Part shown: positions 3,874 through 8,695 of the stretch, in pieces
Numbering within the stretch: position 1 is the stretch's first letter
Layout of the letters: each line of letters starts with the position of its first letter
Assembly (NCBI GenBank): GCA_964632315.1
Contig: CAZWEM010000004.1
Span: 1-64,000, forward strand
Source: an uncultured archaeon
GTDB taxonomy: Archaea > Asgardarchaeota > Lokiarchaeia > Sigyniarchaeales > SOKP01
Direction: 5' to 3'
DNA: 64,000 nucleotides
Translations under genes and position numbers: made by a program
The notes under the pieces: model-generated
What the model was told of the DNA's origin: nothing
What the model saw: the letters and a program-made list of their open reading frames with translations, nothing else
The model's database searches: none

Positions 3874-6113
3874 TTAAAATATCCTTTTTAATTCCAACAT
3901 TAATCTGTCGGGATTATATCTATCAAATTGAAAGATCTCTGCTTTTCCAAATTGCTTGAAATTCTCTTTTATTTTATCAGCTGCAATCGTGTTAACACCC
4001 AAAGAACGTGTAGCATAACTCTTTTTAGGCTCTAATACCACAATGTGAACTCCCTTTTTCGAAAGTTTTTTAGTCAATTCTTCGAGTTCTTTAATGATTA
4101 TCCGATAATCTTCTTGTACTTGTGCTACTAAATCTGGATATTTTACAGAGATATTTGCGCCTAAATCAGAGCAAATAAAAATGACAGGAATAACATTCCT
4201 ATTTTTTAATTTCTCTGCATTTATCAATTTTTCACATTTTTTCAATGCTGCGGCCATTGGAGTATAAGATTTTCCCTCAATTTTTTTCAGTTTATTTATT
4301 GCTGTTTTAAACTGTACAGTAGGTTTCTGAAGAATATATGCTTCTTTTCCTCGAAATATTATCAAGCTTATTTTATCCTTCTTTCTATATCCTTCTTTTT
4401 GAAGCGCCATTATGGCATCAGACATCTGCTTTATAACATAATACATGGATGCAGAACTGTCCAAAACAAAGAATAAAACTAACGGGGCTCGGTATTCGTA
4501 GATTTTATCCATTAAATCGTATTTATCAAATTTGAGAGGATATTTGATATCAGATTGATTATAGACTGTATTTTTAAGATAATTTCGAATCGTGGCATCT
4601 AGTGCAATGCTTTTTGGTATTCTTCGAGGTGTTCTATATGATACATACCTTCCTTTCTGACTTGATGCAATTTTAATTCTTCTTCCAATCCCACGACCTC
4701 CGTAATTTGAGACTTTTCTTTCTTTTCTAATGTTATCCAAGATTGAAGTCATCTTTTTCTCCATTTTATATATTAATGGAAGAGTATCGACACCGTTTTC
4801 AAAAAAATTAATATCAAGTTCTTCAATTGGAATATCCTTAACCTTCCATCCACCCGCGGGAGCGGGACTTCTTTTCCTATTATCAGGATATTTAGGTGGC
4901 GGTAATTTTTGTTCTTTTGTTTCAGGAACATCCACTTTTTTAGGATCAACAGATTGTCGCTTGAATTCTTTTTGCGGAGTATCATCATGTTTAAGAGGAC
5001 CTTCAGTGTCTTTATTAGGCTGATAGACTTTAGGATCCTCATAAGCTTTTTCAATCTTCCCATAGACTTCTGCTATTTTCGCTTTAACTTCTTCAGGAGT
5101 CATCTCGTAGTGCAATGATTGAATTCGATGCTCGAATACGAGGTCCAGAGCTACTTCGAGATCCGCTTCTATTACGCTTTCTCTCCCTTGATATGCAGCG
5201 TGTGCTCTCACGCACCTTATGAACGTAATATCTGCTCGTTGGGAAAAAATACCAAGTTCATTCACTATTTCAGAAACAAAGATATAAACTGATTTCGGGA
5301 TCTCCACCTTTTTTAGTAACTCTCTTGCTCGAATGATTTTATGTCTTAATTCTTCTTGCTGTGTCTCGTATTCCTTAATAAATTGTTTTGGATTATCGTC
5401 GAATTCAATTACTTGTCTCGTGATTTCAGCTCGAAGTTTTGAATCGCGTGGTGCTTCAATTTTCACTTCTAAACCTAAACGATCAGCGATCTGTGGCCTT
5501 AGTTCTCCCTTTCCGAACCCTAATTCGATATGAAAGTAGGATCTTCGGGGTTCATACTTCCGACCAATACAAATCGAGATGGATGTGATACTGAAATCCC
5601 TTCACGCTCAATAATATTTACACCTGATGCTGCCGAATCTAATAGAACATCAACTATGTGATCTTGGAGTAAATTTATCTCATCGACGTAAAGTAATCCC
5701 CTATTAGCTTTAGCTAGTAATCCCGGATGGAGACTACGGATACCTTCAGTGAGAACTTTATCAATCGAGAGAGATCCGCAGACCATATCTTCTGTTGATC
5801 CTAATGGCAAATCTATTATACTCATACTTCTCTTTTCTTTCTCAATTTCCCCTTTTCTTAGCTTTATCCGGCAAGTATCACATAGATCCTCAAACTCTGC
5901 GTTGGGATCACATGAAAATAAACATCCTTTAACTACTTCTATTTCTGGCATCATTTCGGCTAAACTTCGTACTGCTGTTGATTTACCCGTTCCTTGTTGG
6001 CCAGTTAATAACACTCCTCCGATTTGAGGATCAATAGTATTCAATAACAATCCCAATTTCATCTTATCTTGACCAAGAATAGCTGAAAATGGAAAATTAA
6101 TCTTTTTAACCAT
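3874..6113 (-). CDS. ChlI/ChlD-type (Mg/Co-chelatase-like) AAA+ ATPase with Pro/charged linker and C-terminal vWA domain; predicted join(5543..6113, 3874..5510) = 735 aa
   Basis: Exon 1: FPFSAILGQ, Walker A GQQGTGKST, LLAKANRGLLYVDEINLL, GSMNPE. Exon 2 resumes EGELRPQIADRLGL. vWA MIDAS DSSASM and TPMA. Exon lengths 571+1637 = 2208 nt, 736 codons including stop. Confidence 0.85.
5511..5542 (-). other. Candidate 32-nt BHB (tRNA-endonuclease-type) intron in a protein-coding gene
   Basis: Minus strand CC-CCGA-AG^A-TCCTA...TAGGG-T-TCGG-AA^A-GG. Central 4-bp helix CCGA/TCGG; cutting after the 2nd nt of each bulge gives CCC GAA GAG GGA GAA CTA (PEEGEL). Confidence 0.75.
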
Positions 6114-6190
6114 AACAATTTAGCAGAAATATTCATTCATAATAAAAATTATCCTTATAAACAAATTATTACAAATAGGTTTTTATTTTG

Positions 6191-8695
6191 CTAAATTGAA
6201 GAATAATATTCTTTAAAGTAATTCATCATCTGAACGGCAAGTATTCCTCTCTCTGTAATTTTATAGAGTGGTTTATTCCCTTCTTGAGTAATTTTTACGT
6301 AATTCCTAATTAAATCAAAATTTCGTCGAAAATATTTCTTTACAGTATTTCCGGAAGAATAACCTAAATAAGTCGTCAAATCATGGTTACTTACTTCTTT
6401 CTTTAATTTTGAGCATTCCCAAACTGCAGTTAAATATGTATATAAGCTATCTGTCACCTTTTTTGGTTTGTCTAACGGATTTTCTAGTTTAAAATTTATT
6501 TTAGATATCGGAGTGAATTTTTTTATAGCCATTTCATAATTATATTTGACTTTTCTGATGATTTCCTTGCTATCATATATTTTATCTAAAACCCTTAAAT
6601 ATTTCTTATTGTGAAGTACAGTGTGACAATTAGAACATATAAAACCGCCATCCTCCTTTTTGAGTATTTCTACTATATCAGAACAACTAAGATGTTTTGA
6701 AATTCTTGAAGGTTTAATAGATTTGTTCTTTTCATCAACGTGATTAAATTGGAATGAAGTTAAATGATTTTTAGTATCAAATTCTCCACAAATATGACAT
6801 TTTTCCCCATATATCGATTCTATTATATATCTCTTTTTTAATAATTTTGCAATCTCAACTCTAACGTTATCTTTTTTCCTATAATCGAAATCTTTTGTTT
6901 TTGGATGACTATCAACACATATCCTTATTATGGTAAAAATTAATTCTGATGTGAGAAGAAAAATATCTTTAGGAAAGTTATTGGGAATATTTCTCCAAGA
7001 AATCAAATGTTTAAAGAAATTAAAATATTTATAAGAGTGAATATCATGATGGTTCCCACATAAAAGTATGACTTTTTTTGATTCCATTAAGTTAATTAAA
7101 TTCTCTAAAAAATTAGGATTATTGCGATTGGTTCTAAACATATGATAAAGTCTATTAGCTGAGTAATTCCTTTCTTTCCTTGATTTCGTATGATGTAATT
7201 CCAAAGCTTTCAATTTTGAAATATCAGTATTTAGCTTAAATCCAGATTTTTTACATTCAGGACATTTTCCAATTTCTTTCTTAGAATATAATCCATTGTA
7301 TATGTTTTTTATAATATAGATTTTGATTCTACTTCCAACTATCCTTCTATATTCAGCTTCTTTTTCATAACCCTCTTTTAGTGTCAATCCCTTCCTGCTA
7401 TATTCATTGATTGAGAAAAAGTATGGAAAATTTAACTTTAATATATTATAAATATCTATAACATAATCGTAAAAGTAAACAAAATCTAAGGAAAAATTAA
7501 TATCTTGTTCGTATAAATCTCTCGCAAGATGCTTTATAATTATTCTTGCTTTAATCTTTTTATGAATACTATATGAAACGTGTATAAACTTAATAAATTT
7601 TATTAAATCTCCAAAGAATTTATCGAAATCACTTGCTTGGTATATCAAAATATGATTAAGTAAATCGAGTTCATCTGAAGTAAGATCTTTTATTGAACTC
7701 AAATTATCTCTAACTTTATATTTTAAATTTTCAAGGATTTCAAATTCATCAAGATCATTTAGGATATCTTGAAAAACGATAACAGAAATCGAATCTCTTA
7801 TTTTAGCAAAACCAAAGTGAGACGTAATTGATTTAGTTTGAAGTAAGGACAACATTTGTTCAATATCTTTCTTATTTACATCTTTGGTTAATCCTTGCTG
7901 AAAGAATCCTGAATAGGCAGAAAATATTTCGATTGTAAATAAATCTGATTGAAATTCTGTCTGTGTCTTACTAATTAGCAAAGAAGTTGTTCTTAAATTT
8001 AATACCATATCATATCTATATTTTAATTTCAGATTATTTTCTGCTTCCGTCTCAAATTTTATATTTGAGATTTTTTTTAAATTTAGTTTCATCCAATCTT
8101 GTAAAATGAAATTTGAAGTATTTGATAATGGTTCTAAATCAAGTGTCTCAACTAACTCTTCTGATTTAAATCGAAATTCTTTAAGATAAAGAGTATATTC
8201 CTTAACGAGTCTCTGCATTCCTTGCCTGAGCATTCCATAGCGATCTTTTTTATCAGAGTTAGAGTTCAATTCCTTTCGCTGCTTTCTATTTAGCACTTTC
8301 ATGTAAGCATTAGACAAACCATCAAAATATCTTGAGACTAAATCTATTCCTCTTCCAAAAGGATTGCTATACATCCATAAATTGACAAATGATATTAGTC
8401 CATTTGGATCCTCCTTCTTTATTTGATCCAAAAGATCTTCGGGAGGTAAGCTCGAAATATCAAACATACATGCATTCACTCCCGTGAGAAATCTTCCTAT
8501 AAATTCATCGATAAATACCAATGGAAGGTGATGTTTTTTACATTTGGGATACTTTCCAAATCCAAAAAATTTAAATTTCAATGGCTTAACTCGTTTAATG
8601 TACTTACAGCTAAATTGAGGGCATATAGCGATCCGTTCTTCCTCAAGATCCTTTCGTTTAACAGAACTCGTAAATGAATTCATTTTTCTAACCAC
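6191..8695 (-). CDS. Large Lys-rich protein with N-terminal Zn-finger, two HNH-like (beta-beta-alpha-Me) Zn-binding domains and a C-terminal winged-helix-like segment
   Basis: CPQFSC..CKKH; CPEC...LELHH...LLCGNHHDIH; CHIC...FQFNHV...ICSNCHTVLH; C-terminal YKITERG wing motif. Confidence 0.6.
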   Translation of the reverse strand: MVRKMNSFTSSVKRKDLEEERIAICPQFSCKYIKRVKPLKFKFFGFGKYPKCKKHHLPLVFIDEFIGRFLTGVNACMFDISSLPPEDLLDQIKKEDPNGLISFVNLWMYSNPFGRGIDLVSRYFDGLSNAYMKVLNRKQRKELNSNSDKKDRYGMLRQGMQRLVKEYTLYLKEFRFKSEELVETLDLEPLSNTSNFILQDWMKLNLKKISNIKFETEAENNLKLKYRYDMVLNLRTTSLLISKTQTEFQSDLFTIEIFSAYSGFFQQGLTKDVNKKDIEQMLSLLQTKSITSHFGFAKIRDSISVIVFQDILNDLDEFEILENLKYKVRDNLSSIKDLTSDELDLLNHILIYQASDFDKFFGDLIKFIKFIHVSYSIHKKIKARIIIKHLARDLYEQDINFSLDFVYFYDYVIDIYNILKLNFPYFFSINEYSRKGLTLKEGYEKEAEYRRIVGSRIKIYIIKNIYNGLYSKKEIGKCPECKKSGFKLNTDISKLKALELHHTKSRKERNYSANRLYHMFRTNRNNPNFLENLINLMESKKVILLCGNHHDIHSYKYFNFFKHLISWRNIPNNFPKDIFLLTSELIFTIIRICVDSHPKTKDFDYRKKDNVRVEIAKLLKKRYIIESIYGEKCHICGEFDTKNHLTSFQFNHVDEKNKSIKPSRISKHLSCSDIVEILKKEDGGFICSNCHTVLHNKKYLRVLDKIYDSKEIIRKVKYNYEMAIKKFTPISKINFKLENPLDKPKKVTDSLYTYLTAVWECSKLKKEVSNHDLTTYLGYSSGNTVKKYFRRNFDLIRNYVKITQEGNKPLYKITERGILAVQMMNYFKEYYSSI

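What the first reader, a model, noticed from the sequence alone, without database searches (positions are those of the whole stretch)
5487..5576. Candidate tRNA-type (bulge-helix-bulge) intron inside a protein-coding gene, splitting the NPEEGELRPQ motif of a ChlI/ChlD-like ATPase
Seen: the minus strand reads ATG AAC CCC GAA G[ATCCTACTTTCATATCGAATTAGGGTTCGGAA]AG GGA GAA CTA AGG CCA CAG ATC GCT GAT CGT. Removing the bracketed 32 nt (5542->5511) gives MNPEEGELRPQIADRLGL and fuses the two ORFs into 735 aa. The insert is not a copy of its flanks, shifts the frame and contains an in-frame TAG. It folds with a 4-bp exon/intron helix CCGA/TCGG, followed by AGA on the 5' strand and AAA on the 3' strand. 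An intron stem TCCTA/TAGGG closes one side, with one extra U, so that side is relaxed. The exon side has CC/GG and, further out, TGGTC/GGCCA and CGATTTG/CAGATCG. Established: the archaeal tRNA splicing endonuclease cuts after the 2nd nt of each 3-nt bulge, mRNA introns of this type are rare (cbf5 of crenarchaea is the classic case), and NPEEGELRPQ..DR is the conserved ChlI/BchI motif. Inference: the canonical cut positions coincide with frame-restoring junctions, and both halves have no other lesions. So this gene probably depends on EndA/RtcB pre-mRNA splicing in a likely Asgard archaeon. That would echo eukaryotic non-spliceosomal HAC1/XBP1-style splicing and could act as an on/off switch, since the unspliced RNA gives a truncated 197-aa product.
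Basis: partly seen in the sequence, partly recalled or inferred. Interest (0 to 1): 0.95.

Follow-up and report, generated by a model that had tools for sequence, protein, structure and literature searches.

The report
tRNA-type mini-intron in Asgard chelatase gene
A 32-base insert that breaks a chelatase-type ATPase gene of an Asgard (Loki-type) archaeon behaves in every comparative test like a tiny intron cut out of the mRNA by the tRNA-splicing enzymes, a kind of splicing printed so far for only one archaeal protein gene (cbf5), but RNA proof is still missing.

Summary
On the minus strand, 32 nt (5542->5511) split a 735-aa ChlI/ChlD-type (TIGR02442-like) gene inside NPEEGELRPQ. Independent contigs from two other studies carry the insert.

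- Seven species of the genus carry the insert at the same codon; 26 have an uninterrupted gene.
- Both halves are under strong purifying selection (omega 0.04-0.12, dS saturated).
- The exon codons that pair with the insert are fixed 7/7, against 0/27 elsewhere.
- The intron stem shows one compensatory pair.
- The second half has no start codon of its own upstream of the junction.
- An eighth species has a 30-nt form with the motif shifted by one base. The rule "cut after bulge base 2" still restores the exact protein.
- Four sister species instead carry a 30-nt insert at another site of the same gene.
- leuS in this genome has a textbook BHB insert.
- Two EndA paralogues and RtcB are present.

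Not supported: the distal helix TGGTC/GGCCA and the on/off-switch idea. No RNA run was available. My genome-wide scans showed no excess over decoys.

The scan had already noted this chelatase insert in two other genomes, and similar inserts in other genes of this genome. I found no paper on it.

The parts
5543..6113 (-). Exon 1: ATG (6113) to the last exon base G (5543). Encodes residues 1-190 plus the first base of the split Glu codon. Holds Walker A/B of the AAA+ module.
   Evidence: TIGR02442 profile 1-180
5511..5542 (-). 32-nt insert, the proposed BHB intron. It shifts the frame and carries an in-frame TAG (5522-5520).
   Evidence: Same position in 7 species. Present in independent contigs.
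3874..5510 (-). Exon 2: AG of the split codon, then GELRPQ... to the stop. Holds the AAA lid, linker and VWA domain.
   Evidence: profile 182-625. No start codon in this frame upstream of the junction.
5545..5550 (-). Exon-1 strands of the outer helix h (CC, 5550-5549) and the central helix H (CCGA, 5548-5545).
   Evidence: 100% paired in 7/7. Codons AAC CCC GAA GAG fixed 7/7 against 0/27.
5542..5544 (-). 5' bulge A-G|A. The cut is placed after 5543. The third base varies (A/U/G) between species.
5518..5541 (-). Intron hairpin h': UCCUA/UAGGG plus an inner UUC/GAA stem and a 5-nt loop. 5517 is the unpaired U that relaxes the 5' side.
   Evidence: 94.6% of cells paired, one compensatory pair C-G(4)/U-A(3), one G.U to A-U change
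5513..5516 (-). Intron strand of the central helix H (UCGG).
5510..5512 (-). 3' bulge A-A|A. The cut is placed after 5511. Invariant in the 32-nt form.
5508..5509 (-). Exon-2 strand of the outer helix h (GG).

Best explanation
The 32 nt at 5511-5542 (minus strand) are a tRNA-type (bulge-helix-bulge) mini-intron inside the coding sequence of a ChlI/ChlD-type AAA+/VWA chelatase-like gene of a Promethearchaeota (Asgard, Loki-type) archaeon. In the pre-mRNA, the last exon-1 bases pair with the 3' end of the insert to form a 4-bp helix (CCGA/UCGG). This helix is flanked by an exon-exon helix (CC/GG), an intron hairpin and two bulges. The splicing endonuclease, here two EndA paralogues (probably a catalytic alpha and a structural beta subunit), cuts after the second base of each bulge, and RtcB joins the exons. 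The result is GAA-G|AG-GGA, one 735-aa protein with an intact NPEEGELRPQ motif. Unspliced RNA would give only a 197-aa fragment. Shown: the anatomy, its conservation, selection on both halves and the presence of the enzymes. Inferred: the cutting and joining themselves, and that removal is constitutive.
For: 1) Position: 7 of 39 orthologues in the genus carry a 32-nt insert at the identical codon, and 26 have uninterrupted frames of 736-753 aa.
2) No other lesion: removing only the insert leaves every copy open to the end of the DNA held.
3) Selection: omega is 0.04-0.12 on exon 1 and, where dS can be computed, on exon 2, between insert-bearing species whose dS is saturated.
4) Exon constraint: the codons that build the exon side of the motif are AAC CCC GAA GAG in 7/7 bearers and in 0/27 others (expected about 0.017 from their usage).
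5) Structure: H and h are paired in 7/7. The intron stem is 94.6% paired, with one compensatory C-G/U-A pair. The bulge base varies freely.
6) Re-registration: an eighth species (L143) has a 30-nt form with H shifted by one base (CGAA/UUCG), strict 3-nt bulges and the same h. The same cut rule again gives MNPEEGELRPQ, and the other three geometric solutions do not.
7) Second site: four sister species lack this insert but carry a 30-nt insert with a TAA at another codon (EVYGK|IEK). Removing it at the same rule's positions restores the protein in all four, including the one whose 3' bulge reads ACA.
8) Positive control: leuS of this genome has a strict hBHBh' 30-nt insert, kept at one codon in at least 6 species and absent from about 30.
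9) Machinery: two EndA paralogues and RtcB are present. Asgard EndA is reported as the (alpha-beta)2 type with the L1 loop that gives broad specificity (PMC5829648).
10) Real DNA: independent contigs hold the insert.
Against: There is no RNA evidence. Covariation is thin: one compensatory pair, probably a single event, and the core helices never vary, which says nothing by itself. At 26 of 500, 18 shuffles reached the observed score, and relatedness inflates such figures. The 5' side of the window's motif is relaxed (a 2-nt bulge in the MFE, or 3 nt opposite an unpaired U), and the outer helix is only 2 bp. The MFE folds of G007 and L143 do not show the central helix. The region's fold energy is ordinary (z = -0.83). 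My genome-wide scans for ORF-fusing BHB motifs found no excess over a decoy and no length peak near 30 nt, so motif plus ORF fusion alone is weak evidence. Site 2 fits the motif only with one mismatch in H, and at that tolerance geometry is not discriminating.
Confidence: 0.87

Rival explanations
1. Recoding at the ribosome. The insert stays in the mRNA and is skipped by translational bypassing (a hop, as in phage T4 gene 60) or passed by a frameshift. The hairpin would then be a recoding signal.
For: A conserved hairpin with an early in-frame stop is also what a bypass or frameshift signal looks like. At site 2, three species have matching GGA-AAA codons on both sides of the 30 nt. In leuS of G000 and G057 the insert is flanked by identical AGT/AGC-type Ser codons.
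Against: Site 1 needs a 32-nt displacement, and no codon in the exon-2 frame matches a take-off codon in a way that keeps NPEEGELRPQ (direct reading). Matches break between species: the landing codon is CAA in G016 at site 2, and TGT against AGC in leuS of G016, G023, G006 and G009. A frameshift would leave about 10 foreign residues inside the most conserved motif, and it cannot pass the in-frame stops of site 2, leuS or the 30-nt L143 form. One mechanism (BHB cuts) explains all four cases, while recoding needs a different one for each.
Confidence: 0.04
2. A split gene. The two ORFs are translated separately and the two polypeptides assemble into a working ATPase.
For: Both ORFs are conserved and selected. 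Split AAA+ or chelatase subunits exist in nature (my knowledge).
Against: In 7/7 species there is no ATG, GTG or TTG in the exon-2 frame between the upstream stop and the junction. The first possible start lies 10-58 codons downstream, at varying places, and would discard the invariant GELRPQIADRLGLE, which is nevertheless conserved through many synonymous changes. The break lies inside a Pfam/NCBIfam domain. This rival explains neither the frozen exon pairing bases nor the re-registered 30-nt allele.
Confidence: 0.04
3. A pseudogene, inactivated by a 32-nt insertion and inherited by related species.
For: There is a frameshift plus a premature stop. The distribution is patchy, and the gene is not universally essential (3 of 42 genomes had no match).
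Against: omega is 0.04-0.12 on both halves across lineages with saturated dS, and there are no further lesions in 11 interrupted copies. The insert itself is more conserved than synonymous sites (31/32 identical between G000 and G005 at dS about 2.2).
Confidence: 0.02
4. The intron is real but works as a regulated on/off switch rather than being removed constitutively.
For: Unspliced RNA gives a truncated product. In one clade of the exon-1 tree most members carry an insert at either site 1 or site 2, never both. An in-frame stop is kept in nearly all inserts.
Against: There is no evidence of any regulator or condition. 26 congeners, and 74 of 80 species in a wider sample, do without an insert. 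Three members of the same exon-1 clade have none. Similar inserts sit in housekeeping genes such as leuS, which fits passive tolerance by a broad-specificity enzyme better.
Confidence: 0.08

Closest known systems
BHB intron in the cbf5 (pseudouridine synthase) pre-mRNA of Crenarchaeota (Watanabe 2002; Yoshinari 2006; Yokobori 2009, PMC2738675)
   Same: [quoted passage not shown] The hosts have a hetero-oligomeric, broad-specificity splicing endonuclease. Presence is patchy, with gain and loss among related species.
   Different: It is a different gene and a different phylum (Asgard/Promethearchaeota). Here one gene has two alternative insert positions in sister species and a 32-nt and a 30-nt allele at one position. 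Splicing of cbf5 was shown experimentally; here it is not.
46-nt BHB intron in the 5' UTR of Haloferax volcanii HVO_1309 (PMC7714728)
   Same: An mRNA substrate of the archaeal splicing endonuclease outside tRNA and rRNA. That paper states that cbf5 was the only other mRNA case reported.
   Different: It lies in an untranslated region, so the reading frame does not depend on it. It was shown by circRNA-seq and in vitro cleavage.
Non-canonical and multiple tRNA introns of Asgard archaea (bioRxiv 10.64898/2026.10.13.758758; PMC5829648)
   Same: The same presumed enzymes, relaxed motifs, repeated gains, and two EndA paralogues consistent with an (alpha-beta)2 enzyme.
   Different: Those are in tRNA genes. 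Neither paper reports introns in protein-coding genes.
HAC1/XBP1 unconventional mRNA splicing in eukaryotes
   Same: Non-spliceosomal removal of a short intron from a coding mRNA, changing the reading frame. Ligation is by RtcB in animals (my knowledge; PMC8718801 mentions XBP-1).
   Different: There the cut is made by Ire1 at paired stem-loops, not by the tRNA endonuclease at a BHB motif, and it is stress-regulated. No regulation is shown here.
Translational bypass of phage T4 gene 60 (contrast)
   Same: A short hairpin-bearing coding gap with an early stop in an otherwise intact gene.
   Different: Bypass needs matched take-off and landing codons. These are absent at site 1 and break between species at site 2 and in leuS.

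Membership tests
Archaeal BHB (splicing-endonuclease) intron | Central helix of 4 bp between an exon strand and an intron strand | tested here: met
   CCGA/UCGG in the MFE fold. Paired in 7/7 species. CGAA/UUCG in the 30-nt allele.
Archaeal BHB (splicing-endonuclease) intron | Two 3-nt bulges on opposite strands, each 3' of its helix strand (strict hBHBh') | tested here: inconclusive
   The 3' bulge AAA is strict. In the window the 5' bulge is 3 nt only if U5517 stays unpaired, and it is 2 nt in the MFE. This is the relaxed form. The 30-nt allele L143 and the leuS insert are strict on both sides.
Archaeal BHB (splicing-endonuclease) intron | Flanking helices h (exon-exon) and h' (intron-intron) | tested here: met
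h = CC/GG, only 2 bp, 7/7 paired. h' = 5 bp plus a 3-bp inner stem, 94.6% paired with one compensatory pair.
Archaeal BHB (splicing-endonuclease) intron | Cuts after the 2nd base of each bulge give a functional product | tested here: met
   This restores NPEEGELRPQ and a 735-aa frame and abutting profile positions 180/182. The same rule works for the 32-nt form in 7 species, the 30-nt form, site 2 in 4 species, and leuS.
Archaeal BHB (splicing-endonuclease) intron | Host encodes the splicing endonuclease and an RtcB-type ligase | tested here: met
   PF01974 hits on C28 (103 bits) and C8 (70 bits), and RtcB on C26 (568 bits). One EndA keeps the Y..H..K pattern and the other lacks the His (direct reading). 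Broad specificity is taken from PMC5829648 and was not tested.
Archaeal BHB (splicing-endonuclease) intron | Intron absent from mature RNA; excised intron circular or linear | not testable with these tools
   No RNA run holds this DNA. The only run search and read-laying run are spent.
ChlI/ChlD-type chelatase ATPase (NCBIfam TIGR02442, putative cobaltochelatase) | Full-length match above the curated cut-off (779 bits) | tested here: inconclusive
   The halves score 284 and 270 bits and cover profile 1-180 and 182-625 of 641. Their sum is below the cut-off, so this is a family-level relative and the metal or substrate is unknown. Pfam: Mg_chelatase/AAA_5, AAA_lid_2, VWA.
T4 gene 60-type translational bypass | Matched take-off and landing codons flanking the gap, kept across homologues | tested here: not met
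   There are none at site 1. The match is broken in G016 at site 2 and in four species at leuS.

The most novel reading that the evidence does not exclude
This insert is one visible member of a wider habit. In this Loki-type Asgard genus (and, by earlier unchecked notes of this scan, in many genes of this genome), coding mRNAs would routinely need EndA/RtcB splicing. The mini-introns would be gained, lost, re-registered and even replaced at a second site within one gene. Cells whose translation is thought to be coupled to transcription would then need some way to keep ribosomes off unspliced messages, which is a direct handle on how the separation of splicing and translation arose in the lineage closest to eukaryotes.
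Probability: 0.45. Interest if true: 0.9.

Novelty: new member of a known kind. Interest (0 to 1): 0.72.

Why it matters
Endonuclease-type splicing of a coding sequence is documented in print for one archaeal gene family (cbf5, Crenarchaeota), plus one 5'-UTR case in Haloferax. Here the same kind of element sits in the catalytic core of an ATPase gene in Asgard archaea, the closest known relatives of eukaryotes. It comes with unusually rich natural variation: presence and absence among congeners, a second site in the same gene, and a 30-nt allele whose motif has slid by one base while still splicing in frame. That variation makes the element a ready-made test set for the cut rules of the Asgard endonuclease. 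It also bears on annotation, because such genes are called as two fragments or as pseudogenes. If splicing is confirmed, it raises the question of how an organism with coupled transcription and translation avoids making truncated proteins from unspliced messages.

Tried and rejected
- RNA evidence: no RNA holder is listed for window 4500-6500, so expression and splicing could not be tested. The loose ends in runs X4 and X5 at 5542, 5545 and 5510 are intron-less relatives of other species, not spliced or deleted forms.
- Genome-wide census: the first script timed out. The strict hBHBh' + ORF-fusion scan gave 2483 hits against 2230 decoys and no peak near 30 nt. A second scan allowing 30-codon exons gave 978 against 894, and L=29-32 gave 84 against 66. 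Most hits are abutting genes such as carA|carB. The scans therefore neither show nor exclude a large class. They recover only this site and leuS as clear cases, and nothing else credible inside the window.
- ARAGORN intron calls on the genome (30 tRNAs, 19 'with intron') are too noisy to use. The window has no tRNA and no Rfam family.
- Distant genomes with 349-367-aa frames (G025, G026, G028, G032) turned out to have a different gene architecture, not a site-2 insert.
- Site-2 geometry: with one mismatch allowed there are 10-17 solutions per sequence, so geometry alone does not identify it.
- Homing or recent transfer of the insert: sliding-window identity shows only a mild rise around the junction, and it is also seen against an insert-free species. 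Not supported, not excluded.
- Literature: five searches found no report of BHB introns in Asgard protein genes.
- Rejected readings: assembly artefact, pseudogene, split gene, hop, frameshift (see rivals).
Full report
WHAT IS THERE. On the minus strand of the window, a 197-aa ORF (5520-6113) and a 544-codon open frame (5508-3874) are separated by a 32-nt block (5542->5511). The block shifts the frame and holds an in-frame TAG. Removing exactly these 32 nt joins GAA-G to AG-GGA and gives a 735-aa protein reading ...SMNPEEGELRPQIADRLGL... Pfam sees a Mg_chelatase/AAA_5 domain cut off mid-profile at the end of the first ORF, and AAA_lid_2 plus VWA in the second. NCBIfam TIGR02442 (putative cobaltochelatase, ChlI/ChlD type) covers profile positions 1-180 in the first piece and 182-625 in the second, and the missing position is the split codon. 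The break is therefore inside a domain, and the pieces abut to the residue.

IS IT REAL DNA? Yes. Contigs assembled from two other studies' salt-marsh runs cross the block with 0-2 differences (X2 record 12, X5 record 30). The loose ends seen in two runs are insert-free relatives of other species living in the same marshes. Records of the nearest relatives are labelled Promethearchaeota/Promethearchaeia (for example Loki_b31), so the organism is an Asgard archaeon of the Loki lineage.

THE FOLD. The MFE structure of 5480-5580 contains the proposed arrangement: outer helix CC/GG, central helix CCGA/UCGG, a 3-nt AAA bulge on the 3' side and an intron hairpin. The 5' bulge is relaxed, either AG with A5542 paired or AGA opposite an unpaired U. 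The bulges lie 3' of their helix strands, as in pre-tRNA. Overall stability is ordinary (z = -0.83). With the junction fixed by homology, six pairs at the required places have a chance probability of about 0.003. Among 350 cut/length combinations around the site, the window has one geometric solution, and it is the frame-restoring one.

COMPARISON WITHIN THE GENUS. Of 42 genomes, 39 have the orthologue.
- Seven carry a 32-nt insert at the identical codon: G000, G005, G007, G009, G017, G042 and G050.
- Four carry no insert there but have a 30-nt in-frame insert with a TAA further on, between EVYGK and IEK: G001, G016, G023 and G057.
- Twenty-six have uninterrupted frames of 736-753 aa, and two are cut by contig ends.
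- No genome has both inserts.
After removal of the insert alone, all 11 interrupted copies read open to the end of the DNA I hold.

SELECTION. Between insert-bearing species, dN is 0.08-0.17 while dS is 1.1-2.4 or too saturated to compute. Where dS can be computed, omega is 0.04-0.12 for exon 1 and 0.06-0.12 for exon 2. The part downstream of the frameshift has thus been kept as protein throughout the divergence of these species, which excludes a pseudogene. In all seven species the second-half frame has no ATG, GTG or TTG between its upstream stop and the junction. The first candidate start lies 10-58 codons downstream and would drop the invariant GELRPQIADRLGLE. That argues against two separately translated proteins.

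CONSTRAINT ON THE RNA.
- The four codons that build the exon side of the motif are AAC CCC GAA GAG in 7/7 bearers. Among the 27 orthologues without this insert, these synonymous sites vary freely and none has that combination (expected frequency about 0.017).
- In an alignment of the seven (A1), the central and outer helices are paired in every sequence but invariant.
- The intron stem is 94.6% paired, with one compensatory pair (C-G in four, U-A in three) and one G.U/A-U change.
- The third base of the 5' bulge is A, U or G.
- The insert is better conserved than synonymous sites: 31/32 identical between G000 and G005 at dS about 2.2, and the 3' 18 nt are identical in all seven except for the two stem changes.
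- Covariation alone is thin, because it rests on one event. CGAUUUG/CAGAUCG is mostly kept but sits in constrained codons.

A NATURAL RE-REGISTRATION. In a census of 80 species representatives, 74 are uninterrupted at this site, five are bearers already seen, and one (L143, isolate LW40_45) has a variant. Its insert is 30 nt and in frame, with a TAG. The central helix has slid by one base to CGAA/UUCG, both bulges are a strict 3 nt (GAU, AUA), and the outer helix is again CC/GG. Cutting after the second bulge base once more yields MNPEEGELRPQIADRLGL, and the three other geometric solutions nearby give deletions or nonsense. A change of insert length that is matched by a shift of both predicted cut sites is what the endonuclease model predicts. 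Decay, hopping and frameshifting do not predict it.

OTHER MECHANISMS. A ribosomal hop needs matched codons. Site 1 has none that keep the motif. Site 2 has GGA-AAA on both sides in three species but GGA-CAA in G016. The leuS insert is flanked by matching Ser codons in G000 and G057 but by TGT against AGC in four species. A frameshift would leave about ten foreign residues in the most conserved motif and cannot pass in-frame stops. The BHB cut rule gives the conserved protein in every case.

CONTEXT IN THIS GENOME. Two EndA paralogues are present. One (207 aa) has the Y..H..K pattern, and the other (205 aa) lacks the His. RtcB is also present. Published work assigns Asgard archaea the (alpha-beta)2 endonuclease with the L1 loop that confers broad, relaxed-motif specificity (PMC5829648). 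A 2026 preprint finds two paralogues in 44 of 60 Asgard genomes and very many tRNA introns, but does not treat protein genes.

My own scan recovered a second case: a 30-nt strict hBHBh' insert in leuS (C41 26254-26283) that restores ...YPMGYD|SFGLPAENAAI.... It is present at the same codon in at least six species and absent from about thirty. Its central helix is invariant, its bulge bases vary, and its stem changes are wobble-compatible.

Beyond these two, my genome-wide scans show no excess over a parallel-pairing decoy and no length peak. Motif plus ORF fusion is therefore not evidence by itself, and strict-motif cases number at most a few dozen.

Earlier notes of this scan list many further candidates in this genome (histone, TBP, ACS, SCP2, E2, gap, mvhD), the same chelatase insert in two other genomes, and claims of spliced RNA reads for other Asgard genes. 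I tested only leuS among these.

HISTORY. The gene is mosaic: G005 and G042 resemble G023 and G000 in exon 1, but are 90-98% identical to G009 and G017 from about 90 nt after the junction. In the exon-1 tree, all 11 interrupted copies fall in one clade together with three uninterrupted ones. This points to gain and loss within one lineage. The number of events cannot be fixed without a species tree.

WHAT IS KNOWN. Printed precedents are the cbf5 intron of Crenarchaeota (PMC2738675) and a 5'-UTR intron in Haloferax. The Haloferax authors state that cbf5 was the only other mRNA case (PMC7714728). Five literature searches found nothing on Asgard protein genes.

VERDICT. The best reading (0.87) is a relaxed BHB mini-intron removed from the mRNA by EndA and RtcB. 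It is a new member of a known kind, in a new lineage, with informative natural variants. The switch idea is untested. RNA or enzyme evidence is the missing step.

Noticed in passing
L002:2495-2584, L003:987-1076(-), L006:2495-2584, L022:2492-2581: Second insert site in the same gene. Four sister species lack the site-1 insert but carry a 30-nt in-frame insert with a TAA between EVYGK and IEK, ending ...CCGGAA|A (ACA bulge in G016). The motif is relaxed (A.G in the central helix). No genome has both inserts.
   Followed up: partly
L143:958-1050 (JAHPZA010000009.1, isolate LW40_45): A 30-nt allele of the site-1 insert with the BHB motif shifted by one base (CGAA/UUCG, bulges GAU/AUA). The same cut rule restores the frame.
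   Followed up: yes
G000 contig C41 26254-26283 (minus strand); L043, L044: leuS is interrupted by a strict hBHBh' 30-nt insert with a TAA. At least six species carry it at the same codon and about thirty are uninterrupted. In G057 the insert has no stop codon, so read-through would add 10 residues.
   Followed up: partly
L005, L021 against L008, L011 (gene alignment, nt 630 onward): The chelatase gene has a mosaic history. G005 and G042 are about 75-85% identical to G009 and G017 in exon 1, but 90-98% identical from about 90 nt after the junction, which suggests recombination between species.
   Followed up: partly
window 5511-5542 homologues (L008, L011, L026, L143) and L044 leuS insert: The 9-mer TTTCTCAAT is shared by the leuS insert of G000 and the site-1 inserts of G009, G050, G017 and (as TTCTCAAT) L143. 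This could be chance (rough p about 0.01) or a hint of common origin.
   Followed up: no
window 6191-8695 (minus strand): An 834-aa ORF directly upstream of the chelatase gene has no Pfam family and many Cys pairs. A similar C-terminus occurs at this position in only some relatives (L011; partial in L004, L006), while most others have a ~320-aa ORF there.
   Followed up: no
G000 contigs C74, C80, C87, C103, C105, C106, C109, C112, C113: Scan hits on these contigs are strikingly G+C-rich with Arg/Gly/Ala-rich frames, unlike the A+T-rich bulk of the genome. They are probably foreign contigs in the bin (stated contamination 8.57%).
   Followed up: no
window 5510, 5542, 5545 (loose ends): Insert-free orthologues of other species co-occur with this organism in the same salt-marsh samples (runs X4, X5).
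   Followed up: partly
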